A stretch of 33,592 nt of DNA from a virus (Duplodnaviria; Caudoviricetes). How positions within the stretch are numbered: position 1 is the stretch's first letter; each line of letters opens with the position of its first letter. The stretch is taken from positions 1 through 33,592 of IMG/VR virus record IMGVR_UViG_3300032143_000008; one strand, 5' to 3'. The position numbers and the translations under genes were made by a program. The notes under the pieces were generated by a model. That model ran no database searches. It worked only from the letters and a program-made list of their open reading frames with translations, and was not told the origin of the DNA. Below are positions 837-30,697 of this stretch, in pieces.

Positions 837-838
837 AA

Positions 839-11540: not shown

Positions 11541-11645
11541 TATAAATACTTATAAGATTATGAAGGACAGCGATTGATCCTCGTTTCTTTGCCAATTCAA
11601 AGATTACTTCAAAATCTCTTACTTTAACCTAATTGGAGGTATCTT
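11541..11645 (+). ncRNA. TATAAATA late-type promoter plus three-way-junction leader RNA, copy A
   Basis: TATAAATA 11541-48; P1 11555-65/11607-17; GACAG 11566-70; hairpin 11571-83; TT; hairpin TCTTTG-CCAATT-CAAAGA; TTA; loop CCAATT is complementary to AATTGG 11631-36 overlapping the GGAGGT RBS. Confidence 0.75.
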
Positions 11646-12602
11646 ATGCCTAAAAGATTAACCACAGAAGAATTTATTCAAAAAGCTAAACAAGTACACA
11701 GTGATAAATATGATTACTCTAAAGTCCATTATATTAATAGTAACAATAAAATTATTATAATATGTCCTGAACATGGAGAATTTTTACAAAACCCAAACGA
11801 TCATTTAAATAAACATGGATGTTCTAAATGTATGGCAAATAATAATAATTTAAAATTTAAAAAATCTATACATATTTTTTTACATAAAGCAACAAACATA
11901 CACAATAATAAATATAATTATTCTAAAGTAGAATATATCAATACTCATACTAAAGTTTGTATCATATGTCCTGAACATGGAGAATTTTTACAAACACCAC
12001 ATTCTCATTTGAATAATCATGGTTGTCCAAAATGTTCTCATAAAAAGGTTGGCACATTACATATTTTAGATTCAAATATTTTTATAAAAAATTGTATAAA
12101 ATCTCATAATAATTTTTATGATTATTCTAAAACCAATTATATTAATATGAGAAATGATATAATTGTTATTTGTACTAAACATGGAGAATTTAAAATAAAT
12201 GCACACTCTCACAAAAATGGTCAAGGTTGCCCAAAATGTATACCTAAAAAATCAAAAGGCGAACTTCAAATAGAAACATGGTTAAATAAAAACAATATAT
12301 ATTTTATACCACAAAAAACATTTTCAAATTGTAAAAATAAAAGAATATTACCATTTGATTTTTATTTGCCAAATTATAATATTTGTATAGAATATGATGG
12401 ACTTCAACATTTTATTCCAATTAAATATTTTGGAGGAGAACAAGAATTTCAAAGAACACAATTACACGATCATATTAAAAATCAATATTGTCAAAATAAT
12501 AATATTAAATTGATTAGAATAATATATAATCAAAATATTAATTTTATACTTTTAAATTATTTTAAATCGTGTTCTAACATACCCATTAAAAATTTCATAT
12601 AA
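11646..12602 (+). CDS. free-standing homing-type endonuclease: 3 DUF723-like Zn repeats plus PD-(D/E)xK (Vsr/DUF559-like) domain
   Basis: Three YDYSK..Y.N...KV.IICPEHGEF.Q....H....GCPKC repeats; SKGE..I..WL, PFDFYLP, CIEYDGLQHF, KNQYC..NNIKLIRI. Confidence 0.8.
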   Translation: MPKRLTTEEFIQKAKQVHSDKYDYSKVHYINSNNKIIIICPEHGEFLQNPNDHLNKHGCSKCMANNNNLKFKKSIHIFLHKATNIHNNKYNYSKVEYINTHTKVCIICPEHGEFLQTPHSHLNNHGCPKCSHKKVGTLHILDSNIFIKNCIKSHNNFYDYSKTNYINMRNDIIVICTKHGEFKINAHSHKNGQGCPKCIPKKSKGELQIETWLNKNNIYFIPQKTFSNCKNKRILPFDFYLPNYNICIEYDGLQHFIPIKYFGGEQEFQRTQLHDHIKNQYCQNNNIKLIRIIYNQNINFILLNYFKSCSNIPIKNFI

Positions 12603-13738
12603 TTTAAATCTTCACACATACTTTTTGATAAATTATCAGAAATTTTAGCAACAGGTTTTCCGTTTACCTCTACAATCTTAATCACATTCTGTAAAGCAGG
12701 AACTCCTAGATCATTGGTCAAATTAGTCCCGATTCCATAACTTAATTTAATTCTTCCTTTAAAATATTCATTTAACTTAATAGCCATAGGAACGTCTAGT
12801 CCATCACTAAACACTAATGTTTTAGTCATAGGATCAATATCAAAGTTTTTATAATGCTCAATCATTCTATCGCCCCAAACAACAGGATCACCACTATCAT
12901 GTCTCACACCATCATACAATCGTGCAAAACCTATATTAAAATCCTTTAAAAACTTATTAAATCCTAACGTATCAGTCAAAGCAATACAAAGTCTGCCTTG
13001 ATATTCATCATACCATTTTTGTAATAGAAACTTTTGACTATCAATAGGATGAACTATTGCTTGACAAATTTGAAATATCTCATGTGCCATTGTACCAACC
13101 GCAGGAATATCATACTTCATAGCATAATAAAGATTACTAGTCCCTTTGATACATCTATCTTCTATTTTCTTACCGACTAGTTTTTCAATAACAAATTCAT
13201 GCCAAGCATCATTAAATGCTCTTCTAGTTCCAAAATCTACAATATTTAAAATTCCTTGATAGTTTTTAATCATTTCTTTCTTTTCATATAGTCTTATGAT
13301 TCCATCATTCCAAATATCATTTAACTCCATTATATTCGAATAGGTTATATTAGTATAAACTTCATGCACAATTTTAAGAACATAAATTTCAAACATTAAT
13401 GTTTGAAGCAATGGTCCTTGAATTGTGATATCCATCTTACCATCTTTTTGCGAAACAGTAATATATTTCCTTTTAAGCTGATAGTCTTCTAGGAAATCTA
13501 TAAAGTCAGGTTTAAAAAAAGGATAGTTTGATAAGTAATTTAATTCATCTTTAGTAAATTTTAAACTACAAAGATGATCAAGTTCCTTATTAATCATAGG
13601 AATACAAGGAATAAGATCAACATCTTTATTACGACATTTGAAACGATATGTCGCAGTAGCATCCGAAAAATGATGAAGGACTAGTTGTAACATAGATAGC
13701 TTATAAAGATCATTCTTCATTAAAGTATCAACTATCAT
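12557..13738 (-). CDS. pncB: nicotinate phosphoribosyltransferase
   Basis: NDLYKLSM, DFGTRR, GTSN, GTMAHE, LTDT, GVRHDSGDP, VFSDGLD, GIGTNLTND, VAKISD. Confidence 0.95.
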   Translation of the reverse strand: MIVDTLMKNDLYKLSMLQLVLHHFSDATATYRFKCRNKDVDLIPCIPMINKELDHLCSLKFTKDELNYLSNYPFFKPDFIDFLEDYQLKRKYITVSQKDGKMDITIQGPLLQTLMFEIYVLKIVHEVYTNITYSNIMELNDIWNDGIIRLYEKKEMIKNYQGILNIVDFGTRRAFNDAWHEFVIEKLVGKKIEDRCIKGTSNLYYAMKYDIPAVGTMAHEIFQICQAIVHPIDSQKFLLQKWYDEYQGRLCIALTDTLGFNKFLKDFNIGFARLYDGVRHDSGDPVVWGDRMIEHYKNFDIDPMTKTLVFSDGLDVPMAIKLNEYFKGRIKLSYGIGTNLTNDLGVPALQNVIKIVEVNGKPVAKISDNLSKSMCEDLNYMKFLMGMLEHDLK

Positions 13739-13739
13739 T

Positions 13740-14135
13740 TCAACCTACCTTTATATATTTTGTAGTTTTAAAATATTGTCCATAGGTATTACTATCATCA
13801 AAATGAAAATTTATTTTATTTCGTTCACAATACTCTGCTTTAGCTTTATTCCAAACATCATCTGCAAAAAAAGGATTCTTAGAATCTTTCCAAATAACTG
13901 CTTCCCCTTTTTCTAAAAGATAATCAGTAACAGAAAAATGATGTGTATAATAAATATTAATAATATTTAAAAATTTTTCAATTTCTAAATTCCAACTAGA
14001 CCCCGTTATGATGTGAATTTGATTATCGTTTCCTCTAAAATATGAAGAATTCCCTATTATAGAATATGTTAAAAAAGAAAAAACTTCTGGATAACGATCC
14101 ACGACACCATGAATATCAATACCAATTTTTATCAC
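13740..14135 (-). CDS. HAD-superfamily protein (5'-nucleotidase-like)
   Basis: IGIDIHGVVD motif I-like, KAEYC, HFDDS motif IV. Confidence 0.65.
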   Translation of the reverse strand: MIKIGIDIHGVVDRYPEVFSFLTYSIIGNSSYFRGNDNQIHIITGSSWNLEIEKFLNIINIYYTHHFSVTDYLLEKGEAVIWKDSKNPFFADDVWNKAKAEYCERNKINFHFDDSNTYGQYFKTTKYIKVG

Positions 14136-14169
14136 ACTATATCCTTTATTAATTTCTAAATAATATATA

Positions 14170-14751
14170 TTATGGAATATAAGTTGTCAAGTTATTATTT
14201 AAAAATATTCTAAGAATTAAACTAGTTTTAATATCCATTTTAGAAATTCCTCTATTCACATTGTTCAACAAATCAACTACTCCTCCTTTTCCAAGTATAT
14301 GTATTTCAATATCTTCGGAAGATTCGTGTTGATTTTTAGAAACTTCTCCTTCGACTAGTCCACATACAATTGCAGTTTGTTCTGTACTAATTCCTGCTGA
14401 ATTATATCCAAAAGGAATAATTGAAGTAATGTATTTAAGCGTTAAACCTGTTTCCTCATTAAATTCTCTTTTAGCAGTTTGATCTTTGGTTTCATTATCA
14501 TCCATAAGTCCTGCGGGTAATTCCCAAATATAATCATTCAAAGGAATCCTGAATTGTTTAATTAAAACTATTTTATCCATTTCAGGACCATAATGATCTT
14601 GTATAACTCCTGCTATAGCTATTGCATTAACTTGTTTAGGTCTTTCCATAAATGTCCAGAATTTAGTTTCTCCCTTATTGTCAACATATTCACTAGCCTT
14701 CATCTCCAGAAATTTAGTCTTCAATAATGTTTCTGTCTGAATAACTTTCAC
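14170..14751 (-). CDS. NUDIX hydrolase, ADP-ribose pyrophosphatase-like
   Basis: KQFRIP...WELPAGLMDDNETKDQTAKREFNEETG Nudix box; NSAG; EDIE. Confidence 0.85.
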   Translation of the reverse strand: MKVIQTETLLKTKFLEMKASEYVDNKGETKFWTFMERPKQVNAIAIAGVIQDHYGPEMDKIVLIKQFRIPLNDYIWELPAGLMDDNETKDQTAKREFNEETGLTLKYITSIIPFGYNSAGISTEQTAIVCGLVEGEVSKNQHESSEDIEIHILGKGGVVDLLNNVNRGISKMDIKTSLILRIFLNNNLTTYIP

Positions 14752-14798
14752 AATTTACTCCTCTTCAACTTGATTTAATTCATTGCTATATGTTTTGC

Positions 14799-14944
14799 TC
14801 ATTTATATAAACCTTTTGTTTGAATATATTTCCATACTCTTTCATTTAAAAATATCTGAGCAGTATTAACTTTATCTTCTTTAATCCAATTTCTAATTTC
14901 ATATGAATAGGATCAAACGATCCTCCATAAATTCCTATTCTCAT
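14799..14944 (-). pseudogene. nadD: internally deleted nicotinate-nucleotide adenylyltransferase remnant
   Basis: ATG 14944 gives MRIGIYGGSFDPIH (NadD N-terminus, HxGH truncated) joined out of frame to EIRNWIKEDK...LNERVWKYIQTKGLYK-stop (NadD C-terminal pattern). Confidence 0.8.
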
Positions 14945-15168
14945 TTTTTTCCACAATCTATTAATTCTTTTTTCATTTTCTCAAAAAATACTTTATCAAG
15001 CTCTATTATTTTTCGTTGATGTTTTATAATTTCTTCATCCTTATCCATTATTTCTTTAGCAATTTCCATTTCTCTATTAAGAATTTCAATTTGCTTTGTT
15101 TGATTCTCTATCAATTCCATCAAAGTTTGATATTCATTAACAGGCATTGTAATAGTTTCTTGTTCCAT
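14941..15168 (-). CDS. small coiled-coil hypothetical protein
   Basis: ORF track, AAAGGAG RBS, ATGA overlap with the nadD remnant. Confidence 0.65.
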   Translation of the reverse strand: MEQETITMPVNEYQTLMELIENQTKQIEILNREMEIAKEIMDKDEEIIKHQRKIIELDKVFFEKMKKELIDCGKK

Positions 15169-15186
15169 ATTATCTCCTTTTCAATA

Positions 15187-15215
15187 AATATAATTTATGG
15201 TCATATAAAAGTCAA
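15187..15215 (-). promoter_or_regulatory. sigma70-type promoter TTGACT-N17-TATATT
   Basis: Nearly identical to the promoter at 3067-3095. Confidence 0.75.
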
Positions 15216-15223
15216 GTAAAAAC

Positions 15224-15326
15224 TATAAATACTTACATAGAGAGACAGCGATCTTCGAAGTCGTTTCTTTTGCCTAACCAAAAGATTATCTCTATTTAAC
15301 TTCAATCCTGTTAGGAGGTAACTTAA
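15224..15326 (+). ncRNA. TATAAATA promoter plus three-way-junction leader RNA, copy B
   Basis: P1 ATAGAGA 15237-43/TCTCTAT 15289-95; GACAG; CGA..TCG hairpin; TT; TCTTTTG-CCTAAC-CAAAAGA; TTA; loop CCTAAC is complementary to GTTAGG 15310-15 overlapping the AGGAGG RBS. Confidence 0.75.
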
Positions 15327-16073
15327 ATGTCTAAAAAACTTACTACCGAAGAATTTATTCAAAATGCTAAACAAATACATAATGATAAATATAATTATTC
15401 AAAAGTTAATTATAATGGTAATAAAACAAAAGTATGTATAATATGTCCTGAACATGGAGAATTTTATCAATCTCCTAATAATCACCTTAAACCACATGGT
15501 TGTTCAAAATGTTTTAAACATAATAAAAAACAAAAACAATTAGAAATAAAAACCAAAACTTGTATTAAATGTAATATCGAAAAAGATATAAATTTATTTC
15601 GTAAATACCGAAATATCTGCCAAGAATGTAATCTATTATATCATCAAACATATAATCAAGATCATAAAGAAAAAATATTAAAAATACAAAAAAATTATTA
15701 TTGGAATAAATATAAAACCGATCCACTTTATAAAATATCAAAGACCCTTAAAAGGCGAATATTATTAGCCGTGAAACAACAAAAAACTTCCAAAGCTTTT
15801 AAGTCAATAGAATTATTAGGATGTTCTATACCAGAATTATTAAATCATTTACAACAAACGGCAATTAAAAATGGTTATATTAATTTTGATATTAATAATT
15901 ATTCTAGTATAGAATATCATATCGATCACATATTACCATGTGCCCATTTTAATTTAAAAAGTCCAGAAGAACAAAAGAAATGTTTCAACTGGACTAATTT
16001 ACAAATCTTATCTGCTCAAGAAAATATAATAAAAAATGATAACATTAATTGGAAAAAAGATTTGATCTATTAA
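15327..16073 (+). CDS. homing-type endonuclease: one DUF723-like repeat, CxxC pairs, C-terminal HNH domain
   Basis: Same N-terminal repeat as the other four; CIKC..CQEC; YHIDHILPC...CFNWTNLQILSAQEN. Confidence 0.8.
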   Translation: MSKKLTTEEFIQNAKQIHNDKYNYSKVNYNGNKTKVCIICPEHGEFYQSPNNHLKPHGCSKCFKHNKKQKQLEIKTKTCIKCNIEKDINLFRKYRNICQECNLLYHQTYNQDHKEKILKIQKNYYWNKYKTDPLYKISKTLKRRILLAVKQQKTSKAFKSIELLGCSIPELLNHLQQTAIKNGYINFDINNYSSIEYHIDHILPCAHFNLKSPEEQKKCFNWTNLQILSAQENIIKNDNINWKKDLIY

Positions 16074-16965
16074 TATTATGCGGCCAATCTCTTTTAAAAT
16101 GTGTTCGTTCATAACGCAGGACAACAGGATGATTTTTATATTGTTCTCTAATTTTAATAAAATCTTCATAATTTTCGACTCGTCCCGCATATCTAAGATA
16201 ATCATCATATGTAAATTTATCACTATCATCAGTCAACCAAGTCTTTAATATCATATCAACTTCACTATAATTTTTTGCTTGAAGTTGTGCCACATCCGAT
16301 ACTGTAATCCCAAGTCCATCTGTTGCCACCCCGTTAATGCAAAGGTTTAAAGCTTCTGCTTTGTTATCATATGCTTTTCCATTTATGTATTGACTTGCCA
16401 TATAAATCGAAAGACTATAAACTTCAGTTTTCCATAAATTCTGTATCATTGCAAAATCTCCAATATCACCAGCCAAGGTCCAAAAACCTAGAAACCGTTC
16501 ACTGAGATTATCTGTCGAAAGAACCATGCCTTTATACTTCTGAGCAAGGTTATAAAGATAAACCATTCTAGTCCTTGCTTTAACATTTCCCAATCGAATC
16601 TTATCTTCAAGAGTTAGAGTACTATTAATCGTTTCATTTTCACCAATAGCAAGCTGTGCAATCATACCTCGATACATATTTCCAAGATCGACTTCTTGAA
16701 AATCATCACAGAAAGCACGACCGACTTTTTGTGCTCTTTCAATTTCTTCGGGCTTATTGGTTTCAATAGTCAAACTTCTTCCAATAAGTTTAATCCCAAG
16801 ATTTTTACAAACAGGATAAACCAAGGCTGCACAAAGAGCCGAATCAATTCCACCACTAACTCCAAGGACTAGCGATTTAATATTGCTATTCCTTATATAA
16901 CAAGTCAACTCATTTTGAATGTTTTGGATAACAGTATCCCAATTTTTTGTCTCATACGCATTCAT
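16045..16965 (-). CDS. nadE: NH3-dependent NAD+ synthetase
   Basis: LGVSGGIDSAL, GNVKARTRM, STDNLSE, GFWTLAGD, LWKTEVY; no glutaminase domain; ATG 16965 follows AGGAGG. Confidence 0.92.
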   Translation of the reverse strand: MNAYETKNWDTVIQNIQNELTCYIRNSNIKSLVLGVSGGIDSALCAALVYPVCKNLGIKLIGRSLTIETNKPEEIERAQKVGRAFCDDFQEVDLGNMYRGMIAQLAIGENETINSTLTLEDKIRLGNVKARTRMVYLYNLAQKYKGMVLSTDNLSERFLGFWTLAGDIGDFAMIQNLWKTEVYSLSIYMASQYINGKAYDNKAEALNLCINGVATDGLGITVSDVAQLQAKNYSEVDMILKTWLTDDSDKFTYDDYLRYAGRVENYEDFIKIREQYKNHPVVLRYERTHFKRDWPHNINRSNLFSN

Positions 16966-17158
16966 TTTCAACCTCCTGTAATATGTTTTTATTACACCGT
17001 TTACACAAATTCAATGATTTATAATAAGGAACATATAGTCGATTGCATTTTATACAATGGACTTTTTTAAAAGAATAATTTGGTTGTGTATCAATTTGCT
17101 TCTTTGCTTTTTCTGCTTTTTCATCAAGACGTTTTAGAATTTCATCAAGCTTTGCCAT
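16952..17158 (-). CDS. small Zn-ribbon protein
   Basis: CIKC and CKRC; start at ATG 17158 after AAAGGAG. Confidence 0.65.
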   Translation of the reverse strand: MAKLDEILKRLDEKAEKAKKQIDTQPNYSFKKVHCIKCNRLYVPYYKSLNLCKRCNKNILQEVENECV

Positions 17159-17182
17159 ATCATCTCCTTTAAATATAGGAAT

Positions 17183-17211
17183 AATATAATACATGGCAAA
17201 TTAAAAGTCAA
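17183..17211 (-). promoter_or_regulatory. sigma70-type promoter TTGACT-N17-TATATT
   Basis: Same motif with CCAT in the spacer; heads the nadE unit. Confidence 0.75.
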
Positions 17212-17213
17212 AT

Positions 17214-17673: not shown

Positions 17674-17674
17674 T

Positions 17675-18224: not shown

Positions 18225-19166
18225 TTATTGTTTCAGCTTCTCTTTTGAATTTGGATTCTTATGACCTTTCCACCAATCCTTATTGACGTTCACATAATTC
18301 TTATCAAAGACTTTCTTATCATATTTTCCCGGCGTACCTATATCTATTGTACTTACATCAAAGGTTTCTTCTTTGACTATAGGTTTTCTATACATTGTAT
18401 ATGATAATCTAAAATCTTTATGTCTTCCTTTATTTAATACAAATCCAAATCTTTTATAAAAATCTATCAATCTATTTTTTGAAGTTGCTCCAAAATCTGT
18501 CGATGGTGAAAGTGCTATAGTTAATTGATTATCATCTGCAAATTTAAATATTGCTTCCATTATCTTTGTTCCTTCTCCTTGTTTCCTCATATCTTTAGGA
18601 ACAAATATTCTACTAATAGCAATATAATCTCCAAACTTATGATAAGACATGCTTACCTCTATACCATTCTTCTCAAGCTTAGATGTTAAAGAATCTAATT
18701 TTGTTTCTATAGATTCTTCTTCATTTATATTAAGATTATATTTATCAAACGTTCCATTGTTATTTGTAGATTTAATTTGGTCTGGTTCTAAAATAAATCC
18801 ATCAAATGATCCATCTTTATTTTTAAGTATCGCTCCATCAAATCCTAATCCTTGAAGTTCTCCTATACTATAATTCTCATATTCTTTCCATCCTGCCGGT
18901 TTAATAATTCTAGCATATAAACTCATTATTACTTTTACGCTTTGTGCTCCAGATTTTCCATCCTCAATAGATTTTTTATTTGATGAAAACCAAAATATTC
19001 CCTGTGCTCCTTTCTTCATATTAATCTTAGAAAATCTTTTATTAGTTCCATGATATACAATTATAGGTTCACCAGAACTATCCACAACCTTACTATCTCC
19101 AAACCATTTTTTAAATTCAGGAGTTTTAGTTTGATCTTCATTTAAATAATGTTCTAAAAATTTCAT
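18225..19166 (-). CDS. ART-PolyVal-like ADP-ribosyltransferase domain fused to GNAT-like acetyltransferase
   Basis: TPEFKKWFGDSKVVD..GEP..VYHGT...QIKS..NNGTFD; second domain IFVPKDMRKQGEGT...FYKRFGF. Confidence 0.75.
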   Translation of the reverse strand: MKFLEHYLNEDQTKTPEFKKWFGDSKVVDSSGEPIIVYHGTNKRFSKINMKKGAQGIFWFSSNKKSIEDGKSGAQSVKVIMSLYARIIKPAGWKEYENYSIGELQGLGFDGAILKNKDGSFDGFILEPDQIKSTNNNGTFDKYNLNINEEESIETKLDSLTSKLEKNGIEVSMSYHKFGDYIAISRIFVPKDMRKQGEGTKIMEAIFKFADDNQLTIALSPSTDFGATSKNRLIDFYKRFGFVLNKGRHKDFRLSYTMYRKPIVKEETFDVSTIDIGTPGKYDKKVFDKNYVNVNKDWWKGHKNPNSKEKLKQ

Positions 19167-19168
19167 TA

Positions 19169-20728: not shown

Positions 20729-20746
20729 TTCTTTCTCCTTTTTAAA

Positions 20747-22295: not shown

Positions 22296-22903
22296 TCCGT
22301 CTCCTTCTTTCCTGATAATTGATTTAATGCTCCTCTTCCACCTTGAATAAACATTGATGCTAAATCACTTCTTTGATGAACCACATTTAATACTTGATCT
22401 ATTAAAATAAGTTTTTTCTCATAATCAGTTTCTCCTAATAACTCTCCAGCCAAATCAACCAATTTATCTAAACCATAATCGGACAATCGCCATTGTCCAT
22501 TTTCATCTTGTAAATACTCTCCTAATTTTTCTAATAATTCTTCAGTTGGTTCTATTTCTTCATTGGCATCTTTAATCAAATCTTTTGGATCATCTCGTTT
22601 ATGCCCTAATAAAGCTGTATTAGCATCTAATGTTGCAATTTTATCAACTATGTTATCAACAATTTGATCTATTCCTCTTTCATCTCGTATAATACCTTTA
22701 TTCATGTAATCTTCCCAAATCTTCTTTACTCGATGTAAAGGCATAGGATACCATTTTTGTTTTTCATTTGGTTTAGCGTTTTGCACATCATTTAAAATTT
22801 CTAAAATTTTATTTTGATATTTTTCATAATATTCACCGACAGTATCATCGTTCCATTCTTTTAATGATTTTAATCCTTCGATTAAATATTGTATGTAACT
22901 CAT
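22292..22903 (-). CDS. hypothetical protein with N-terminal tag MSYIQYLIE
   Basis: ORF track, translationally coupled on both sides. Confidence 0.75.
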   Translation of the reverse strand: MSYIQYLIEGLKSLKEWNDDTVGEYYEKYQNKILEILNDVQNAKPNEKQKWYPMPLHRVKKIWEDYMNKGIIRDERGIDQIVDNIVDKIATLDANTALLGHKRDDPKDLIKDANEEIEPTEELLEKLGEYLQDENGQWRLSDYGLDKLVDLAGELLGETDYEKKLILIDQVLNVVHQRSDLASMFIQGGRGALNQLSGKKETE

Positions 22904-23178
22904 AACTTCTCCTTTTTAGTTTCTATATTCTTTTGCCAAATTTTTCCAGTAGTAGCAATGCCATTTGCTAAACAATACAAAATCAAAACTGATTCAGGTA
23001 TTATAATCATTTGTAATGACATAATTGATAACGTTGCCCATATTCCAAATATAACAAGGTTAGAAAATATAACAGATAATAAAAAAGCAAATCGAATCGA
23101 AGACCAACGCTCCGATCCATTCTTTAATAATCCTGACATGTTATACCATAATTTATCAAAAAATTCTCTAATCTTCAT
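22900..23178 (-). CDS. two-TM membrane protein (holin-like), paralog 2
   Basis: SSIRFAFLLSVIFSN...PESV..Y.LAN...GK..QKN.E, clearly paralogous to 22014..22295. Confidence 0.6.
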   Translation of the reverse strand: MKIREFFDKLWYNMSGLLKNGSERWSSIRFAFLLSVIFSNLVIFGIWATLSIMSLQMIIIPESVLILYCLANGIATTGKIWQKNIETKKEKL

Positions 23179-23474
23179 ATTCTTTCCTCACTATATTGTA
23201 TTTGATTGCTTTCATCTATATATTCTAATATCCTGTGACTATTACTGCACAATCTCCAACCATTAATTATAATTGATTGTTTAGATTTAATGCTATGATT
23301 TCCAGTTTTACTTTCTATTATATATACTTTATTATGACAATTTGCACAAAGATAAACTAAATTGTGCTTCTTATTAGAACCATTTAATTCTTTTGGTAAT
23401 ATATGATGTTTGTGAATCTTAGATCGTTCTTCTGTAATAAATTCACACAATTGACATTTATACAAATTAATCAT
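23175..23474 (-). CDS. small HNH endonuclease
   Basis: CQLC, HHILPKELNGSN...NLVYLCANCH. Confidence 0.8.
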   Translation of the reverse strand: MINLYKCQLCEFITEERSKIHKHHILPKELNGSNKKHNLVYLCANCHNKVYIIESKTGNHSIKSKQSIIINGWRLCSNSHRILEYIDESNQIQYSEERI

Positions 23475-23510
23475 AATATCTATTTCTCCTATTAATATTT
23501 ATAGATTTTA

Positions 23511-23610
23511 TATAAATACTTATAAGATTTTGAAGGACAGCGTAGGCATACGTTTCTTGCCAGTACAAGATTACTTCAAATCTCTTACTTTAACCTTACT
23601 GGAGGTATCT
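23511..23610 (+). ncRNA. TATAAATA promoter plus three-way-junction leader RNA, copy C
   Basis: P1 23525-35/23574-83; GACAG 23536-40; CGTA-GGCA-TACG; TT; TCTTG-CCAGTA-CAAGA; TTA; loop CCAGTA is complementary to TACTGG 23597-602 overlapping the GGAGGT RBS. Confidence 0.75.
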
Positions 23611-24531
23611 ATGAAAAAATTAACTACAGAAGAATTTATTAAAAAAGCTCAACAAATACATGGTGATAAATATGATTATTCAAAAGTTAATTATCTTAAT
23701 AGTCATATTAAAGCTTGTATAATATGTTTAGAACATGGAGAATTTTGGCAACTCCCAAATTGTCATTTAAATTATAAAGGGTGTCCTATGTGTGGAAGAG
23801 AACATAAAAACGAATGGAGAAAACTAACTACTGAAAAATTCATTCAAAAAGCTAAACAAGTTCATGGTGATAAATATGATTATTCTCAAGTGCAATATAT
23901 TAATTCTGCTCAAAAGATTTGTATCAAATGTCCTGAACATGGTGAATTTTTTCAACTTTCCAATAATCATTTTAAAAACGGATGTCCTAAATGTGGTGGA
24001 AGTAAAGCTTTAAATAAAGAAGAATTTATTGAAAGAGCGATTAGAATACATGGTAAAATATATGATTATAGTAAATCAGAATATAAAAATAATAAAACTA
24101 AAATTTGCATCATATGCCCCAAACACGGAGAATTTTGGCAAAAACCTATTATTCATTTATATGAAAAATCTGGATGTACTAAATGTCGAAGATCAAAAGG
24201 TGAAGAGACAATCGAACAGTGGTTAATAAATCATAATATTCAATTTGAAACTCAAAAAAAATTTAAAGACTGTAAAAATAAATTACCATTACCATTTGAT
24301 TTTTATTTATTAAATTATAATATTTGTATTGAATATGATGGCATACAACACTTTAAATCCAAAAAATTTTATGGAGGAATTGATGCTTTATTTATACGCC
24401 AAAAAAATGATAAAATAAAAGATCAATATTGTATTGATAATAATATTGATCTTTTAAGAATTCCTTATACTGAATTTAAAAATATTAATAATATATTAAA
24501 TTCTTATTTTAATATAAAAGAGGTATTCTAA
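23611..24531 (+). CDS. DUF723-like Zn-repeat plus PD-(D/E)xK endonuclease
   Basis: Likely true start ATG 23611 (MKKLTTEEF) after GGAGGT; three repeats; PFDFYL, CIEYDGIQHF. Confidence 0.8.
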   Translation: MKKLTTEEFIKKAQQIHGDKYDYSKVNYLNSHIKACIICLEHGEFWQLPNCHLNYKGCPMCGREHKNEWRKLTTEKFIQKAKQVHGDKYDYSQVQYINSAQKICIKCPEHGEFFQLSNNHFKNGCPKCGGSKALNKEEFIERAIRIHGKIYDYSKSEYKNNKTKICIICPKHGEFWQKPIIHLYEKSGCTKCRRSKGEETIEQWLINHNIQFETQKKFKDCKNKLPLPFDFYLLNYNICIEYDGIQHFKSKKFYGGIDALFIRQKNDKIKDQYCIDNNIDLLRIPYTEFKNINNILNSYFNIKEVF

Positions 24532-25102
24532 CTGGTTGTCCTTTATTAGCAGGACAAAACATAATTTCTCTAACTTGAAATTTAAGACCTTTAAAAGTCT
24601 CTAAATCAATTTTAGATTCTAACTCTTTTCTTGCACTTTTACGAATATACCCTATAGTTATGTGTGGATTATATTCGGGCCACTTAGTTGTATAATGAAC
24701 ATTTGATCTAAAATATTCGTTTATTTTACACACAATGTCTGTGGCATCATCTAGAAAAAATGATCCAAAAGATTTTAAATCAATTTTCATTACATCATAA
24801 TCTTTTTCACCTTCAAAAAAACTAATATTACCCAATTCTATTTCAAACGGTTTTATTTTAACAGCTAAATTTCTTATTTCATCGGGTTCTGTTGAGTGTA
24901 TCCCATATAATAAAGTACAATGACTTTGGTTTTCTAGTCCCAATGAAGGATCATCTTTACTAGTATATATTGCATTTTTAGGAAGTCGTTCTCCAAATTC
25001 TTTGATAGCTGTTGCTACATCTTCTTCAACATTAAATTGTACTGAAGAATATTGATATTCACCATTTGAATTTTCTTTAAAATAAAATTTTTTGAAACCC
25101 AT
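24509..25102 (-). CDS. 2H phosphoesterase (LigT / T4 gp57B-Acb1-like fold)
   Basis: Two HxT motifs: SHCTLLYG and PHITIGY. Confidence 0.8.
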   Translation of the reverse strand: MGFKKFYFKENSNGEYQYSSVQFNVEEDVATAIKEFGERLPKNAIYTSKDDPSLGLENQSHCTLLYGIHSTEPDEIRNLAVKIKPFEIELGNISFFEGEKDYDVMKIDLKSFGSFFLDDATDIVCKINEYFRSNVHYTTKWPEYNPHITIGYIRKSARKELESKIDLETFKGLKFQVREIMFCPANKGQPVRIPLLY

Positions 25103-25152
25103 TTATATCTCCTATTTTAACTTATATTGTTTCCTATTAGTATTTATATTAT

Positions 25153-25356
25153 TTAAATAGAAAAGATTTCGATTTCTCCTAGATATCCATTTTCACCTTC
25201 ATAATCTATTTCATCGATATCCCCTAATCTCTTTTGAATAAATTCTTGTTCTATTTCTCTTTGTTTATCTTCTGTAAGGTCTTCCCATTTAATTTGAACA
25301 GTCATAGACCTATTACCTTCTTTAAGATATTTGTTTGCCATCTCATTTATATTCAT
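25153..25356 (-). CDS. small acidic hypothetical protein
   Basis: ORF track, AAGGA RBS, KYLKE near the N-terminus. Confidence 0.6.
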   Translation of the reverse strand: MNINEMANKYLKEGNRSMTVQIKWEDLTEDKQREIEQEFIQKRLGDIDEIDYEGENGYLGEIEIFSI

Positions 25357-25423
25357 ACTTATTCCTTATTTAAATGTCATGATAAAATCTTTAATATTTA
25401 TATTAGTATTTATACTAAATTAA

Positions 25424-25514
25424 TATAAATACTAATATAAGGTTAGGTTTAATACTAGTAATATTAAACCAATCCACAGGAGTTCTTGTGGACTGTCCCT
25501 TAACTTTATTTATA
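25424..25514 (-). ncRNA. three-way-junction RNA copy D, inverted, between convergent TATAAATA motifs
   Basis: Minus strand: TATAAATA (25514-07), TAAGG GACAG TCCACA-AGAACTCC-TGTGGA TT GGTTTAATA-TTACTAG-TATTAAACC TAA CCTTA; AGAACTCCT is antisense to the gene's AGGAGTTCT RBS (25514-22); plus-strand TATAAATA at 25424-31. Confidence 0.7.
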
Positions 25515-25525
25515 GGAGTTCTAAT

Positions 25526-26434
25526 ATGCCTAAAAAATTAACTACGGAAGAATTTATTCAAAGAGCTAAACAAGTACACGGTGATAAATATGATTATTCT
25601 AAATCAATATATATTGACAGTTATACTAAACTAAAAATAATTTGTTCTAAACATGGTATATTTGAACAAAAACCATACATTCATTTACAAGGTTATAATT
25701 GTTATCATTGTGGTCTTATAGATCGTGATAATAAACATAGAAAAAATATTGAAACTTTTATTATCGAATCTCATAAAATTCATAATAATAAATATGATTA
25801 TTCTATGGTACAATACAAAAATAACATAACAAAAATAAAAATAATTTGTTCTAAACATGGAGTATTTGAACAAACTCCTAATTCTCATATTAGTCAAAAA
25901 TGTGGTTGTCCAAAATGTGCCAACGTATCAATTCCATCAACTCAATATTTTATTGAAAAATCTATAGAAATTCACGGAAATAAATATGATTATTCTAAAA
26001 GTAATTATATTAATAGCAGAACTAAAATATGTATAATCTGTAAAAAACATGGAAAGTTCTGTCAAATTGCAAGTACACATTTAAGAGGATGTGGATGTCC
26101 CAAATGTCAAAGATCAAAAGGAGAAGAACAAATTGCAAACTGGTTAAAAGAACATAACATAAACTATAAATGTCAATTTAAATTTAAAAACTGTAAAAAT
26201 AAAAATTTATTATCATTTGATTTCTTTTTACCAGAAATGAATATTTGTATTGAATTTGATGGTAAACAACATTTTCAACCGATTTCAGAATTTGGTGGAT
26301 TAATTAAATTTAATAAACAAAAAATAAATGATAATATTAAAAATCAATATTGTTATATCCATAATATAAAATTAATTAGAATTCCTTATTACGATTATAA
26401 CAATATTGATATTATATTATCACTTCATACCTAA
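25526..26434 (+). CDS. DUF723-like Zn-repeat plus PD-(D/E)xK endonuclease
   Basis: Three repeats; SKGEEQI, FDFFLP, CIEFDGKQHF. Confidence 0.8.
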   Translation: MPKKLTTEEFIQRAKQVHGDKYDYSKSIYIDSYTKLKIICSKHGIFEQKPYIHLQGYNCYHCGLIDRDNKHRKNIETFIIESHKIHNNKYDYSMVQYKNNITKIKIICSKHGVFEQTPNSHISQKCGCPKCANVSIPSTQYFIEKSIEIHGNKYDYSKSNYINSRTKICIICKKHGKFCQIASTHLRGCGCPKCQRSKGEEQIANWLKEHNINYKCQFKFKNCKNKNLLSFDFFLPEMNICIEFDGKQHFQPISEFGGLIKFNKQKINDNIKNQYCYIHNIKLIRIPYYDYNNIDIILSLHT

Positions 26435-27874
26435 GATAAAATTTTTAATTTTATCAATATCATTTACATTTATATTTTTATCAAGAATCCAATCCATAGT
26501 TTTTTTAATAATTTCTCCTATTTTTTTTCCTTCTGTTTTAGGATTGATTTTTAACAAATCAATAATAAATTTACCATTAATAATCTTTCGAATATTTTCT
26601 ACTGAATTACTACCACTATATTTACTTTTAAGTTTTTCAATCTTTTGAATAATTTTATTCCATTCTTCTTCGTCAAAAAGTTGACCCCTGGCTCTGCTAT
26701 CAGCTTCGGCTACACTTAATAATAAATCAAAATATGGACTATTCATCATTTTCAAAGCAGTAGAATCTTTTAACTTTAAAAATTGAGGCATTTTCATATG
26801 ATTAGCAGCAGCAAATTGTAAAGCTTCTCTAGTATCATTATCTAATTTAAGACGATTAGCTATTTCATCAATCATTTCAAATGCTTTAGCCTCGTGTCCA
26901 TAATAATGATGTTTATTATCATCTCCAACAGAATGTGTTTTTAACTTCCCAATATCATGCAAAAGAACCGCTAATGTAACTAATGGGTCTTTAATTTTAA
27001 CTGTCTTAATAGCCTCAATCACATGACCAAGTACAGTTCCTTTTAATTTACCTTCACCCTCGGGATGGTCTTCGAGACTATGTAATTTATCTGCTAATCC
27101 AACAATTTCAGGAAGAATATATTGCATCAATCCGGTATTAATTAACAATTGAATAGATTTTGCAAAGGTTTCTCCTTCAGCATCAGCCATTTTAAAAAGT
27201 TCTTGAGAAATTCTTTCAGCAGCAACTTTCTTTATTTCTGGCGCATGTTGTTTAATTGCTTCCATAGTCTTATCGTCTATACGAAAACCTAACTTGGAAG
27301 AAAATCTCACTCCACGCATTAATCTTACAGGATCTTCAATGATTCTAGTCTTAGGATCTCCAACAAAAGAAATAATTTTATTTTTAATATCACTTAATCC
27401 ATTTACATGATCTATAACATTTCCATCTTTGTCAATGCCAAGTGCATTTAATTTGTAGTCACGCCTTTCTGCATCGTCTTTAAATGAACTAGTTATTTCA
27501 ACTTTATCTGCTCCTTTACCTCCACCTAATTTATCATAAATATCTTTTCTATAAGTTGCAATTTCTATATTTTGACCTTTATAGGGTACTACAGTCACGC
27601 CCATCAATTTATTTTTACCTATATCTATGGAGGTTCCAAATATTTTTTCTATCTGTTCTGTATTAGCATTTGAAACTAAATCTATATCATGAGGATCTTT
27701 GCCCAACAATAAATCTCTAGTTGCTCCTCCGACTATCAAACATTCAAATCCGTGCGAATGAATTTTAGTCATTACTTCAACTGCATTTTTTAAATCTGAA
27801 TACTTATCTTTAAGGTCTTCCCATTGATCAAATTTTTCTTCTGTTAAATAGGTATAATATTCTTTAAATTTCAT
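26420..27874 (-). CDS. cca: CCA-adding tRNA nucleotidyltransferase with HD domain
   Basis: VGGATRDLLLG..PHDIDL, EIATYR, DAERRD..LNAL, EDPVRLMRGVRF, ERI..EL, HPEG, LLHDIGK, GHE. Confidence 0.88.
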   Translation of the reverse strand: MKFKEYYTYLTEEKFDQWEDLKDKYSDLKNAVEVMTKIHSHGFECLIVGGATRDLLLGKDPHDIDLVSNANTEQIEKIFGTSIDIGKNKLMGVTVVPYKGQNIEIATYRKDIYDKLGGGKGADKVEITSSFKDDAERRDYKLNALGIDKDGNVIDHVNGLSDIKNKIISFVGDPKTRIIEDPVRLMRGVRFSSKLGFRIDDKTMEAIKQHAPEIKKVAAERISQELFKMADAEGETFAKSIQLLINTGLMQYILPEIVGLADKLHSLEDHPEGEGKLKGTVLGHVIEAIKTVKIKDPLVTLAVLLHDIGKLKTHSVGDDNKHHYYGHEAKAFEMIDEIANRLKLDNDTREALQFAAANHMKMPQFLKLKDSTALKMMNSPYFDLLLSVAEADSRARGQLFDEEEWNKIIQKIEKLKSKYSGSNSVENIRKIINGKFIIDLLKINPKTEGKKIGEIIKKTMDWILDKNINVNDIDKIKNFILGMK

Positions 27875-27899
27875 TTGGTATCCTTTATAAATTTATCCT

Positions 27900-27928
27900 A
27901 AAATAATATATTTTAATTAAAAAGTCAA
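27900..27928 (-). promoter_or_regulatory. sigma70-type promoter TTGACT-N17-TATTTT upstream of cca
   Basis: Same -35 as the other minus-strand promoters, 17-nt spacer. Confidence 0.55.
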
Positions 27929-27940
27929 CCTATTTTTTAA

Positions 27941-28849
27941 TTATATTTCTCCTAGTCTATTAAATTCTCTATAAGCAAGTTCTAAATCATCTCCAAAAAC
28001 TCTTTTATAATCATTTTTACTTGGATAATTTTGATTATCTTTAATAAATTTTCTAAGATAATTATGAATTGTATTTTTGATTCCGTTCATTCCAAAAAAG
28101 CCCTTTCCAACTGCTTCATTACTTTCTAAATTTTTCATTATATCATCTCTCAATTTTTTCATATAATCACCATCTATATTTAAATGTAACCGTAATTCAT
28201 ATCCAATATCATCATCATCTAAAAAAGCTAAAGCAGCATCATTTAATTTTTTAATAAATTTATCTCCTCTAAGCGGCTCTAATGATTGTTTATATAACTT
28301 TGCAATTTTTTCTAATCTATTTACAATATTTTGTCCTTTAGTTGCAAGTTCTCCTTTTTTAACAGATATATCTGCACCCCTTTTAATAAAATTTTGTATA
28401 GTGTCTTGATAATCTCCACCCATAGCATTTACCATTAATTTTTTTCCACCATATGCTATAAATTTTTTATATGCTTCTAATTTTTGTTTTGTATATTCCT
28501 GATTTTCTGGATAAAAATACTCATTACCCCATGAACAAACAGATATATAATCATCTTTAGGGACTAGTTTTTTCTTATAATAATATTCCTGTAATACATC
28601 ATAACCTGTTCGATGTTCATCTGCTATAGCAATTGGAATAATATTATTGGTTTTTAATCCAATTAAGATATATCTTACTTGATCCCATTGTCCAATTTTC
28701 TGTCCTTTAGTAGCACTGTTAGCTGCTAAGATTTTAGCTTTCCAATTTTTAGCATTAGACATATCTCCAGTTATTTCAAAATTCTTTTGAATTTTTTCTG
28801 GAATAATAAATTGTTCTTTAGCTTCTTTATAATATTGTGAAAATTTCAT
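27941..28849 (-). CDS. hypothetical protein with N-terminal tag MKFSQYYKE
   Basis: ORF track. Confidence 0.75.
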   Translation of the reverse strand: MKFSQYYKEAKEQFIIPEKIQKNFEITGDMSNAKNWKAKILAANSATKGQKIGQWDQVRYILIGLKTNNIIPIAIADEHRTGYDVLQEYYYKKKLVPKDDYISVCSWGNEYFYPENQEYTKQKLEAYKKFIAYGGKKLMVNAMGGDYQDTIQNFIKRGADISVKKGELATKGQNIVNRLEKIAKLYKQSLEPLRGDKFIKKLNDAALAFLDDDDIGYELRLHLNIDGDYMKKLRDDIMKNLESNEAVGKGFFGMNGIKNTIHNYLRKFIKDNQNYPSKNDYKRVFGDDLELAYREFNRLGEI

Positions 28850-29875
28850 TTAATAATCTCCATAACCATATTCGATATATCTAGCCGCAGTTTTTGGTTT
28901 CATCTTTTTAAAATCATCCATACTATAAACTTCATCTGCTGGTTTTATAGCAACATAAATATTTTTAATAAAGACAGGTTTAATATTTCCTTTATAACCA
29001 TAGATACCAAATTCTTTAGATAAGCTCATAGGTTTACTTTTATATGTTCTTTTATGACTTTGAACATGATAATCATAAAATTCATGTGCTCCAGTTTCTC
29101 CTTCGACATCATAATCGGCAATCATTAAATCTTTATCTGGTATTTTAAATTCTAATATAATAGGAATTCCACCCTTCTTATTAGCAGTCATTATAGAATG
29201 CCCCATTGCTTCACCTATTAAAGTTGTAAAGAAAATTTTATCTGGATGTTGTATCCCTTGTTTTAGCCAATTAGATTCTCTCTCGTCAGGTCTAAGTCCT
29301 TTTCTTAAAATTCCATCTAAATATTTTGAAGTTGTTCCATGATAAGCAATATCTGATATTTCTCCAACTATTTTCTTTTTAGTAACTTTAATATCACTGT
29401 CTCCATGAGAAACAGTAACAGACTTTAATTTTAAAGTATCTACAACTTTCTTGACAAGAATAGAAGATTTAGGGTCTAATTTAAAAGATGAATAATTTTG
29501 AACATATAAGACTTTATCATGTATGCTTCCGACTAAAACATCTGGATATCTTTCACTAATTTCTTGCATAAGCGAATATACATCTGATGAATCATTATAT
29601 TCTTCAAAATTTAAATTAGTTGCTATTTCATCTTTAATATTTTGAATATTTGGATCATCATCGTTTAAAAAATAAATCCATTTATCAAATGCTATAATCA
29701 CATCATTGTTTTTATCTCCAACAACAACCATTTCATTAATAGCTTCATCATCTTCAAATTGAGTAACGGATGCATCATAAGCATTCAATCTTCTTTTAAG
29801 TTTATCTTCACTAAATTGATTAAGCGAAGAATCCATTCCATTTATTGCTTCTTTAAGATGTTCTATATAACTCAT
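28850..29875 (-). CDS. putative ADP-ribosyltransferase-fold (Tpt1/KptA-like motif) protein
   Basis: Start ATG 29875 (MSYIEHLKE, AAGGAG RBS); AYHGTT...ILRKGL.P, IFFTT, ILEF.IP. Confidence 0.6.
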   Translation of the reverse strand: MSYIEHLKEAINGMDSSLNQFSEDKLKRRLNAYDASVTQFEDDEAINEMVVVGDKNNDVIIAFDKWIYFLNDDDPNIQNIKDEIATNLNFEEYNDSSDVYSLMQEISERYPDVLVGSIHDKVLYVQNYSSFKLDPKSSILVKKVVDTLKLKSVTVSHGDSDIKVTKKKIVGEISDIAYHGTTSKYLDGILRKGLRPDERESNWLKQGIQHPDKIFFTTLIGEAMGHSIMTANKKGGIPIILEFKIPDKDLMIADYDVEGETGAHEFYDYHVQSHKRTYKSKPMSLSKEFGIYGYKGNIKPVFIKNIYVAIKPADEVYSMDDFKKMKPKTAARYIEYGYGDY

Positions 29876-30024
29876 TTGATCTCCTTTAAAATACAATCAC
29901 ATAATACATATCTTGCTATAACACTTCCAGATAAACACAATGTTGCCGTTAATACACAATTATCTTGTAATGTCCATCCTTCTGCTGCTGATGTTATAGC
30001 TCCACCTATAATAGTATATTCCAT
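29872..30024 (-). CDS. small hypothetical protein (50 aa, MEYTIIGGAITS...)
   Basis: Manual ORF with TAATG and ATGA overlaps with both neighbours. Confidence 0.5.
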   Translation of the reverse strand: MEYTIIGGAITSAAEGWTLQDNCVLTATLCLSGSVIARYVLCDCILKEIK

Positions 30025-30569
30025 TATTCACCTATCTTAATAACATCAAGATAAGGTTCTAGTTTTAATAAAAACATTTTATTTTGATCTTCAAATTTTA
30101 TAAAATTATATTTATCTTTCTCTGACATATCTTCATCAAATTCTTTCCATTCGTCTTCATCTGTTTTATATTTAACAACAGCCTTAATAGGAACGTCAAA
30201 TATCTTAATAACTTTAAGATTTAAATCTTCAAAATCAATTGCTTTACCACTATCATTTGTAGCTTTGACTAAAGTACCTTCTTCTAAATTATCTAATGCT
30301 TCATTGCTTTCAACACCAATATAAAAATCATATGTATATAATGATACAGGTTTTTTAGTTGGAGTTAATTTATTATCTGTATCTAAACCTCCACCTTTTT
30401 TAAATTGAGGGGGTCGATATTTTTCTTGTTCAGGTGCGGGCAACGACCTAATAAGAACACGATTTCTTTGACCTGTCGGAGTTACGTGGTACACATATCT
30501 ATCTCGCCACGATTTTTTTGGTTTTAAATTCAATTTATATTCGTTTAAATAAAATTCTAAAAAATTCAT
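30024..30569 (-). CDS. hypothetical protein with N-terminal tag MNFLEFYLNE
   Basis: ATG 30569 with GGAG RBS. Confidence 0.7.
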   Translation of the reverse strand: MNFLEFYLNEYKLNLKPKKSWRDRYVYHVTPTGQRNRVLIRSLPAPEQEKYRPPQFKKGGGLDTDNKLTPTKKPVSLYTYDFYIGVESNEALDNLEEGTLVKATNDSGKAIDFEDLNLKVIKIFDVPIKAVVKYKTDEDEWKEFDEDMSEKDKYNFIKFEDQNKMFLLKLEPYLDVIKIGE

Positions 30570-30585
30570 TTTTGTCTCCAATTTT

Positions 30586-30677
30586 TATAAATACTTAAAA
30601 GAGGTTAGGTTTAACATTAGTAGTGCTAAACCAATCGACAGGATACTAATCGACTGTCCCTCACAATAGTATTTATA
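30586..30677 (-). ncRNA. three-way-junction RNA copy E, inverted, between convergent TATAAATA motifs
   Basis: Minus strand: TATAAATA (30677-70), GAGG GACAG TCGA-TTAGTATCCTG-TCGA TT GGTTTAGCA-CTACTAA-TGTTAAACC TAA CCTC; GTATCCT is antisense to the AGGATAC RBS (30688-94); plus-strand TATAAATA at 30586-93. Confidence 0.7.
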
Positions 30678-30697
30678 ATTTTTAATAAGGATACCAC

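What the first reader, a model, noticed from the sequence alone, without database searches (positions are those of the whole stretch)
11541..30697. Conserved three-way-junction RNA with a gene-specific anti-RBS loop upstream of all five endonuclease genes
Seen: copies A (11555-11617), B (15237-15295) and C (23525-23583) share P1-GACAG-hairpin-TT-hairpin-TTA-P1' while stem sequences differ with compensatory changes. The 6-nt loop differs in each copy (CCAATT, CCTAAC, CCAGTA) and each is the exact complement of the 6 nt running into that gene's own Shine-Dalgarno (AATTGG, GTTAGG, TACTGG). Each begins a few nt after TATAAATA. Known: TATAAATA is the T4 late promoter consensus, and T4 homing endonuclease genes are repressed by simple RBS-occluding hairpins. 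Inference: this is a more elaborate pseudoknotted translational switch (protein- or ligand-responsive), or a small nuclease-associated RNA with a programmable loop. I do not recognise it as a named RNA family.
Basis: partly seen in the sequence, partly recalled or inferred. Interest (0 to 1): 0.92.

Follow-up and report, generated by a model that had tools for sequence, protein, structure and literature searches.

The report
Three-armed RNA lock on phage nucleases
A small three-armed RNA fold, with no match in the RNA catalogue Rfam, sits at the start of all five selfish DNA-cutting genes of this uncultured phage and of many related phage genes, on either strand, and one loop nearly always matches that gene's own ribosome landing site, so it likely works as a re-targetable brake on nuclease production.

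Summary
The element is real and widespread. A model trained only on opposite-strand copies from other phages finds D, E, A and C (not B), so both forms are one family. Three searches gave 174 non-redundant copies. In gene-strand copies the P3 loop pairs with the gene's own Shine-Dalgarno region (63 of 67; 6.5% of cross pairs), which often sits in a small hairpin, and the P2 loop is often palindromic. In opposite-strand copies the P2 loop is the anti-RBS loop (44 of 56 held-out; 5.1% cross). Targets are mostly endonucleases of unrelated families, plus TnpB, primases and tail-chaperone-like genes, so it is not a nuclease guide RNA. Best reading: a ligand-free translational brake acting in cis or as antisense RNA (0.6); protein or ligand switch, dimer sensing and ribozyme remain open. 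No Rfam match; no transcript data. This scan noted each orientation before on other DNA; I found no note uniting them. It may be among unnamed candidates of PMC10690425, whose alignments I could not read.

The parts
11541..11548 (+). TATAAATA late-promoter box, copy A
11555..11617 (+). Three-way-junction RNA A (core 11561-11611; P2 loop UUGAUCC; P3 loop CCAAUU 11592-11597)
11627..11640 (+). Target mini-hairpin A: loop AAUUGG (11631-11636) closed by ACCU/AGGU, holds the Shine-Dalgarno
11646..12602 (+). Endonuclease gene A (phrog_559; DUF4379/DUF723-type repeats)
15224..15231 (+). TATAAATA late-promoter box, copy B
15237..15295 (+). Three-way-junction RNA B (P2 loop contains palindrome UUCGAA; P3 loop CCUAAC 15273-15278)
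15307..15318 (+). Target mini-hairpin B: GUUAGG (15310-15315) closed by CCU/AGG
15327..16073 (+). Endonuclease gene B (one N-terminal repeat, different C-terminal domain, HNH-like by atlas features)
23511..23518 (+). TATAAATA late-promoter box, copy C
23525..23583 (+). Three-way-junction RNA C (core 23529-23580; P2 loop GGCA; P3 loop CCAGUA 23560-23565)
23593..23606 (+). Target mini-hairpin C: UACUGG (23597-23602) closed by ACCU/AGGU
23611..24531 (+). Endonuclease gene C (phrog_559)
25424..25431 (+). TATAAATA box facing gene D (would make the nuclease mRNA)
25438..25502 (-). Three-way-junction RNA D, antisense to its gene; P2 loop AGAACUCC (25479-25486); P3 loop UUACUAG (25455-25461)
25507..25514 (-). 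TATAAATA box that would make antisense RNA D
25515..25522 (+). Shine-Dalgarno region GGAGUUCU of gene D, complement of the P2 loop of D
25526..26434 (+). Endonuclease gene D (phrog_559)
30586..30593 (+). TATAAATA box facing gene E
30601..30662 (-). Three-way-junction RNA E, antisense to its gene; P2 loop holds GUAUCCU (30640-30646); P3 loop CUACUAA (30617-30623)
30670..30677 (-). TATAAATA box that would make antisense RNA E (also leader of the gene ending at 30024)
30688..30694 (+). Shine-Dalgarno region AGGAUAC of gene E, complement of the P2 loop of E
30698..31594 (+). Endonuclease gene E (phrog_559)

Best explanation
The five elements are copies of one portable RNA scaffold with a fixed core (GACA[G/U], UU, UNA) and two variable loops, one of which is complementary to the neighbouring gene's ribosome-binding site; it likely acts as a ligand-free brake that keeps selfish nucleases poorly translated from predicted strong T4-type late promoters. 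Gene-strand form (A-C): the leader would fold as transcription starts, and the P3 loop would kiss a small downstream hairpin, so that the 5' GG of the Shine-Dalgarno is held in the loop-loop helix and its AGG in the hairpin stem. Opposite-strand form (D, E): a facing promoter would make the same fold as an antisense transcript (often the leader of the neighbouring phage gene); its P2 loop would pair with the nuclease mRNA's ribosome-binding site in trans, and its anticodon-like P3 loop may first dock on the complementary loop in that mRNA's leader. The palindromic P2 loop of gene-strand copies may let two leaders pair. Shown: structure, covariation, loop-to-RBS matching, one family in two orientations. 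Inferred: transcription, pairing in the cell, repression, absence of a ligand.
For: Gene-strand: P3 loop has 6 or more Watson-Crick pairs in its own next 45 nt in 63 of 67 copies against 6.5% of 4422 cross pairs; the paired stretch ends 4-15 nt before the start codon in 63 of 63 and is flanked by a stem of at least 3 bp in 41 of 63 against 8.8 expected. Opposite-strand, held-out set found by promoter words plus GGACAG only: 85 of 123 loci hold the full fold, 0 after shuffling; P2 loop matches the opposite-strand RBS region in 44 of 56 new copies against 5.1% of 3080 cross pairs, while P3 shows no such match. Third set (metagenomes): of 40 new copies 26 fit the P3 rule and 7 others the P2 rule at 7 nt or more; none fits both. 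In both orientations the loop is complementary to the mRNA strand, as an RNA target requires. One family: model R2 from 32 opposite-strand copies of other phages finds D (E 6e-8), E (1e-5), A (1.4e-4), C (1.2e-3). Covariation: 11 of 16 pairs change on both sides among 13 copies in one related genome, 0 of 500 shuffles reach it (alignment fitted to the model). The related complete phage G001 has a gp55-like late sigma factor (E 1.8e-12) and other T4-like genes; three of its motif-less nuclease genes have a plain RBS-covering hairpin right after TATAAATA, read by eye, which suggests the fold replaces such a hairpin. The loop CC / target GG pattern resembles strong kissing loops from in vitro selection (PMC4872101, passages); 30 of 48 CC-loops hold CCNY.
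Against: No transcript, structure-probing or reporter data. The junction bases are nearly invariant (GGACAG in 32 of 35 model hits, GGACAU in 3), more than a passive brake obviously needs, though the searches favour that core. The palindromic P2 loops (13 of 37 distinct loops with a 6-mer palindrome against 1.4 expected; 6 of 17 against 0.6) are not explained by a simple brake. In D/E-type cassettes the antisense RNA is also fully complementary to the mRNA leader, which could soak up the P2 loop. Plain secondary-structure models already pair much of the Shine-Dalgarno in A-E without the loop contact. 4 of 67, 12 of 56 and 7 of 40 copies fit neither rule at the thresholds used (some are decayed or cut short). 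Model R2 misses copy B and model R1 misses D and E.
Confidence: 0.6

Rival explanations
1. Protein- or ligand-responsive switch: the conserved junction binds a host or phage protein or a small molecule that locks or frees the loop-RBS contact.
For: Near-invariant junction bases with a non-canonical G-U/U-U position; loop-target duplexes average only -7.6 kcal/mol against -9.0 for the anti-Shine-Dalgarno, so the contact could be conditional.
Against: Regulated genes are unrelated in function and fold, so neither autoregulation by the nuclease nor a shared metabolite fits; the fold occurs in T4-like phages, Clostridia-type siphophages and an Acidobacteria-type genome bin; it also works from the opposite strand.
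Confidence: 0.15
2. RNA concentration sensor: two leaders pair through palindromic P2 loops, and pairing tightens or releases the RBS lock, tying nuclease output to the number of transcripts or genomes.
For: Diverse palindromes (UAGCUA, UUGCAA, UCAUGA, GUCGAC, UUCGAA, UAAUUA) are enriched in P2 loops of gene-strand copies only; P2 is also the arm that pairs in trans in the opposite-strand form.
Against: Copies with tetraloops such as GGCA in window copy C lack a palindrome yet keep the anti-RBS loop; 11 of 37 distinct loops have no 4-mer palindrome; some palindromes may derive from anti-RBS loops such as AUAGCUCC.
Confidence: 0.12
3. Self-cleaving ribozyme or RNase-processing signal that cuts the leader or releases the antisense RNA.
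For: About ten near-invariant bases in a three-way junction; copies between major-tail and DUF5055 genes have no promoter of their own.
Against: No match to any Rfam family, ribozymes included; gene-specific RBS matching is not needed for cleavage.
Confidence: 0.06
4. DNA-level or transcription-level device: facing promoters interfere with each other, and the fold is a by-product of an inverted repeat.
For: 10 of 11 first opposite-strand copies have a facing promoter word; a G001 homologue of gene E keeps the two facing boxes without the fold.
Against: Does not explain loop-RBS covariation or the gene-strand form (6 of 67 have a facing word); G-U outnumbers A-C 30 to 12 inside stems on the motif strand (descriptor partly favours G-U).
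Confidence: 0.05
5. Guide RNA of the nuclease, with the loop as a programmable targeting element.
For: Strong linkage to endonuclease genes (52 of 72 with an endonuclease PHROG).
Against: Unrelated nuclease folds and non-nuclease genes share it; the 6-9 nt loop always matches the gene's own RBS.
Confidence: 0.02

Closest known systems
RBS-sequestering hairpins of T-even homing endonuclease genes (I-TevI, I-TevII, I-TevIII, segB, Aeh1 mobE; PMC2988022 and PMC3014915, passages read)
   Same: RNA structure covers the Shine-Dalgarno of a homing endonuclease gene next to a TATAAATA late promoter.
   Different: There a single hairpin forms on early or middle transcripts and late transcripts start inside it and escape. 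Here the box lies upstream of the whole fold, the contact is loop-loop from a three-way junction, and there is an antisense form.
5' UTR hairpins with TATAAATA before GIY-YIG and Vsr-like endonucleases in fractured-gene loci (PMC2677866, passages read)
   Same: Portable control element shared by unrelated endonucleases of uncultured phages.
   Different: Described as simple hairpins, ten of them containing the promoter; no junction or covarying loop in the passages seen. Its figure S4 motifs were not seen.
C4 antisense RNA of phages P1/P7, Rfam RF01695 (as described in PMC5320573, passages read)
   Same: Three-stem RNA whose loops pair with a target that includes a ribosome-binding site; loop sequence sets specificity.
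   Different: No model match; different core; C4 is cut out by RNase P and controls lysogeny; no cis kissing form.
Cis-encoded antisense RNAs that start by loop kissing (ColE1 RNA I, PMC11012335 passages; IS10 RNA-OUT and U-turn loops, recalled)
   Same: Opposite-strand transcript overlapping its target; 19 of 51 seven-base P3 loops fit YUNNNAR against 1.3 expected.
   Different: Here a second loop carries a separate copy of the anti-RBS sequence, aimed at a site outside the overlapped region.
int-alpA RNA motif, Rfam RF02996 (lead from scan note e1-5865778)
   Same: Similar size; phage and prophage context.
   Different: No match on the window at E 10 nor on 54 member loci scanned against all of Rfam.
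Unnamed candidate structured RNAs upstream of HNH/GIY-YIG genes in PMC10690425 (e.g. DNAVirus_8080, 227, 5494, 1557)
   Same: Length 58-97 nt, within 25 bp of such genes (supplement tables).
   Different: Cannot tell: alignments and structure figures were not readable; no function is proposed for them in the passages seen.

Membership tests
T-even HEG late-bypass hairpin | RNA structure sequesters the endonuclease RBS | tested here: met
   by covariation only
T-even HEG late-bypass hairpin | Late promoter lies inside or after the 5' arm, so late transcripts lack the structure | tested here: not met
   TATAAATA ends 5-6 nt before the extended P1 in A-C
T-even HEG late-bypass hairpin | Single stem-loop | tested here: not met
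   three helices with compensatory changes
T-even HEG late-bypass hairpin | Phage uses a gp55-type late sigma factor | tested here: inconclusive
   found in relative G001; the window is an 11% fragment and was not searched for it
C4 antisense RNA (RF01695) | Match to the covariance model | tested here: not met
   none at E 10
C4 antisense RNA (RF01695) | Three-stem fold with loop complementary to an RBS-containing target | tested here: met
C4 antisense RNA (RF01695) | RNase P processing | not testable with these tools
   no RNA data
int-alpA motif (RF02996) | Match to the covariance model | tested here: not met
Known small self-cleaving ribozymes | Match to an Rfam ribozyme model | tested here: not met
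Known small self-cleaving ribozymes | Self-cleavage | not testable with these tools
   needs an in vitro assay
Riboswitch | Specific ligand binding, genes of one pathway | tested here: inconclusive
   genes share no pathway; binding cannot be tested
Nuclease guide RNA (omega RNA, HEARO, RAGATH-18 type) | Tied to one nuclease family, guide matches a foreign DNA target | tested here: not met
   many unrelated families; loop matches own RBS
Cis-encoded antisense RNA (copies D, E) | Promoter on the opposite strand overlapping the target leader | tested here: met
   by sequence only
Cis-encoded antisense RNA (copies D, E) | Transcript detected and target repressed | not testable with these tools
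   no RNA holder listed

The most novel reading that the evidence does not exclude
A natural re-programmable RNA chassis: a fixed junction holds one loop for pairing with another RNA molecule and one for pairing within the molecule, and the first (self-dimer or antisense capture), or a partner bound at the junction, switches the ribosome lock, letting homing endonucleases count their own transcripts or genomes during infection.
Probability: 0.22. Interest if true: 0.87.

Novelty: new variant of a known kind. Interest (0 to 1): 0.64.

Why it matters
Homing endonucleases are abundant in large phages and must be restrained; the known solution is a simple hairpin bypassed late in infection. This uncatalogued family shows a different, portable solution reused by unrelated nucleases, TnpB, primases and tail-chaperone-like genes, and the same 50-65 nt fold is used in cis with one loop and as antisense RNA with the other. 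That offers a natural, compact, re-targetable translational repressor and a direct test of how a cis leader and an antisense RNA evolve from one another. All predictions can be tested with short synthetic RNAs and reporters.

Tried and rejected
Rfam: nothing on the whole window at E 1, only chance hits at E 1.5-9 on copy A, nothing over the element in 54 member loci; C4 and int-alpA models empty on the window. Sequencing runs: no RNA holder listed; contigs of four DNA runs gave two joints that skip cassette C or E, with unknown sequence between, a weak hint only. Cultured phages: three short BLAST searches gave only weak hits at E 0.09 or worse; model R1 found nothing in five records including T4, GAP32 and KP13-7, but with no candidates scored, so this is not evidence of absence; a loose pattern was uninformative. 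Invertible-segment idea: among 56 facing-promoter copies P3 did not match the downstream side (3.29 vs 3.31 cross) and I saw no flipped copy. CsrA-type GGA sites: several targets lack GGA. Autoregulation by DUF723 repeats: most regulated genes lack them. Nuclease fold: no PDB or NCBIfam assignment; atlas leads only. MAFFT alignment A5 has register slips in P2/P3, which lowers its pair counts (68-74% paired; P1 97.5%) and weakens model R2. The search for the ColE1 loop sequence in papers returned nothing relevant, so that likeness is recalled only. The duplex-fold estimate for D/E against their RBS regions was dominated by AU-rich pairing and not used.
Full report
Setting. The window is an 11%-complete fragment of a virus record. 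Nearly all long ORFs run on the minus strand; five endonuclease-like genes run on the plus strand, all matching phrog_559. Fifteen window proteins, ten of them non-nuclease, have homologues (31-58% identity) in a complete 253,664-base phage, G001, which has T4-like tail tube, head protease, sliding clamp, UvsY and translation-repressor genes (102 of its ORFs scanned) and a gp55-like late sigma factor (E 1.8e-12). Reading TATAAATA as a late promoter is therefore reasonable but inferred.

The observation. A descriptor for P1-GACAG-P2-TT-P3-T[TA]A-P1' finds five sites in the window and none in 200 shuffles. D and E are on the opposite strand, between two facing TATAAATA boxes (2 matches, 0.00 expected), and there the loop of P2 is the complement of the gene's Shine-Dalgarno region (8 and 7 nt).

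Set 1. I classed 67 as gene-strand and 11 as opposite-strand by eye. In 63 of 67 the P3 loop has at least six Watson-Crick pairs within its own next 45 nt, against 6.5% of 4422 cross pairs; the best of 10,000 permutations reached 16. The paired stretch ends 4-15 nt before the start codon, usually in GG or AG, and in 41 of 63 it is flanked by a stem of three or more pairs, against 8.8 in spacer shuffles: a kissing contact that splits the Shine-Dalgarno between two helices. For 10 of the 11 opposite-strand copies (one cut short) the P2 match averaged 7.1 nt against 4.4.

Set 2, held out. Of 56 new non-redundant copies (one, L322, is gene-strand), 44 have a P2 match of six or more to the opposite-strand region, against 5.1% of 3080 cross pairs; P3 matches neither side. 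Of 51 opposite-strand P3 hairpins with a seven-base loop, 19 fit the anticodon-like pattern YUNNNAR against 1.3 expected; gene-strand copies 2 of 27. That pattern is its own reverse complement, so it is present on the mRNA leader too; docking of the two loops is my inference.

Set 3, held out. Of 121 metagenome loci, 68 hold the fold and 40 are new: 26 follow the P3 rule, 7 others the P2 rule at seven or more, 7 neither, none both.

One family. Model R1 (40 gene-strand copies) finds A-C but not D or E. Model R2 (32 opposite-strand copies from other phages) finds D, E, A and C but not B. Both forms occur together in the window, in G001 (16 gene-strand copies, 3 opposite-strand ones of which 2 have a variant core) and in G008. 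Among 13 G001 copies 97% of stem cells pair and 11 of 16 pairs change on both sides (fitted alignment, no phylogenetic correction). In 35 whole-record model hits the core was GGACAG in 32 and GGACAU in 3, so the G-U position is probably non-canonical.

Palindromes. P2 loops of gene-strand copies hold six-base palindromes in 13 of 37 distinct loops (1.4 expected) and 6 of 17 in set 3 (0.6 expected); P3 loops and opposite-strand P2 loops do not. I took this lead from earlier scan notes and tested it here. Window copy B has one (UUCGAA), A only GAUC, C a tetraloop. P2 thus appears to be the arm for pairing with another molecule in both forms.

Regulated genes. Of 72 ORFs called for the 78 set-1 copies, 52 match endonuclease PHROGs, including HNH, GIY-YIG, LAGLIDADG-like and EndoVII-like types; 5 are primase or replication proteins, 6 DUF5055, 1 ProQ, 1 TnpB, 7 unassigned or weak. 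DUF5055 copies lie 13-37 nt after a gene that I read as the major tail protein, ahead of a tail-chaperone-like pair (by eye). Of 48 ORFs opposite set-2 copies, 17 are GIY-YIG-type, 3 HNH, 2 NUMOD3 only, 5 DUF7487 or DUF4379, 2 zinc finger only and 19 without a Pfam hit, many cut short. In G001, 10 of 19 nuclease-like ORFs have the gene-strand fold and 1 a variant antisense one; three of the other eight have a plain hairpin over the RBS just after TATAAATA, including the homologue of gene E. The fold is thus optional and seems to stand in for a hairpin.

Mechanism. Most likely a ligand-free translational brake acting in cis or in trans (0.6). Because the promoter box precedes the whole fold, the early/late bypass described for T-even genes (PMC2988022, passages) does not apply. 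Rivals are a protein or ligand switch (0.15), a dimer-based concentration sensor (0.12), a ribozyme or processing site (0.06), promoter interference alone (0.05) and a guide RNA (0.02). Nothing here shows transcription or repression.

Novelty. No Rfam 15 match. Paper searches listed no description; the library lacks most subscription papers. Seen as passages: PMC2988022, PMC3014915, PMC2677866, PMC4872101, PMC5320573, PMC11012335, PMC10690425 (plus searches in its supplement tables 3-6; alignments and figures unreadable, so the motif may be among its unnamed candidates). PMC5737381: search listing only, supplement unreadable. This scan has noted gene-strand leaders (8 notes) and antisense cassettes (8 notes) on other genomes; the notes give no sequences, so identity with this family is likely but unchecked, and a word search for both orientations together found none. 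Verdict: real, an uncatalogued RNA family doing a known kind of job in a new way; interest 0.64.

Noticed in passing
window 12557-12602, 16045-16073, 24509-24531, 26420-26434, 31584-31594: All five nuclease genes are inverted against their neighbours and overlap the 3' end of the converging gene by 46, 29, 23, 15 and 11 nt, which may protect them from deletion.
   Followed up: partly
window 23175-23474 (-), 23496-23518: A small ORF with an HNH-like motif (by eye) on the minus strand sits behind a TATAAATA box that is back to back with the box of copy C.
   Followed up: no
window 26420-27874 (-): tRNA nucleotidyltransferase (CCA-adding)-like gene.
   Followed up: partly
window 2-7797 and 12557-16971 (-): By eye: vWA, kinase, phosphatase and isochorismatase-like genes, and NAD salvage genes (phosphoribosyltransferase, NAD synthetase, NUDIX); not run against libraries.
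   Followed up: no
window 8036-9516 (-), 18225-33567 (-): Three ORFs start with KIR.G.VSNSSSSSF; many ORFs start with a MKF.EYY..E-like motif, recalled as typical of head proteins cut by a T4-type protease.
   Followed up: no
L055 1045-1350 (-): A gene-strand copy and its LAGLIDADG-like gene lie directly after a group I intron core (Rfam 59 bits).
   Followed up: no
L268 1197-1256 (-): An opposite-strand copy targets the RBS of a TnpB/Cas12f-like gene.
   Followed up: partly
L239 1196-1243 (+): A copy before a DUF5055 gene has a minimal P3, and its P2 loop matches the downstream RBS region (5 nt): possibly a third wiring.
   Followed up: no
G001 copies L301, L304, L313:728-786, L317:16598-16664: The fold and promoter persist where the nuclease gene is decayed or gone, perhaps because the promoter serves the neighbouring gene.
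   Followed up: partly
P3 stems of L019, L030, L034, L036, L291 and others: A subfamily carries a GAAA/AGUA internal loop in P3, recalled as a loop-E or sarcin-ricin-type module.
   Followed up: no
junction of all copies: The GAC and UNA strands resemble the UAA/GAN internal-loop motif (recalled; not checked in papers).
   Followed up: no
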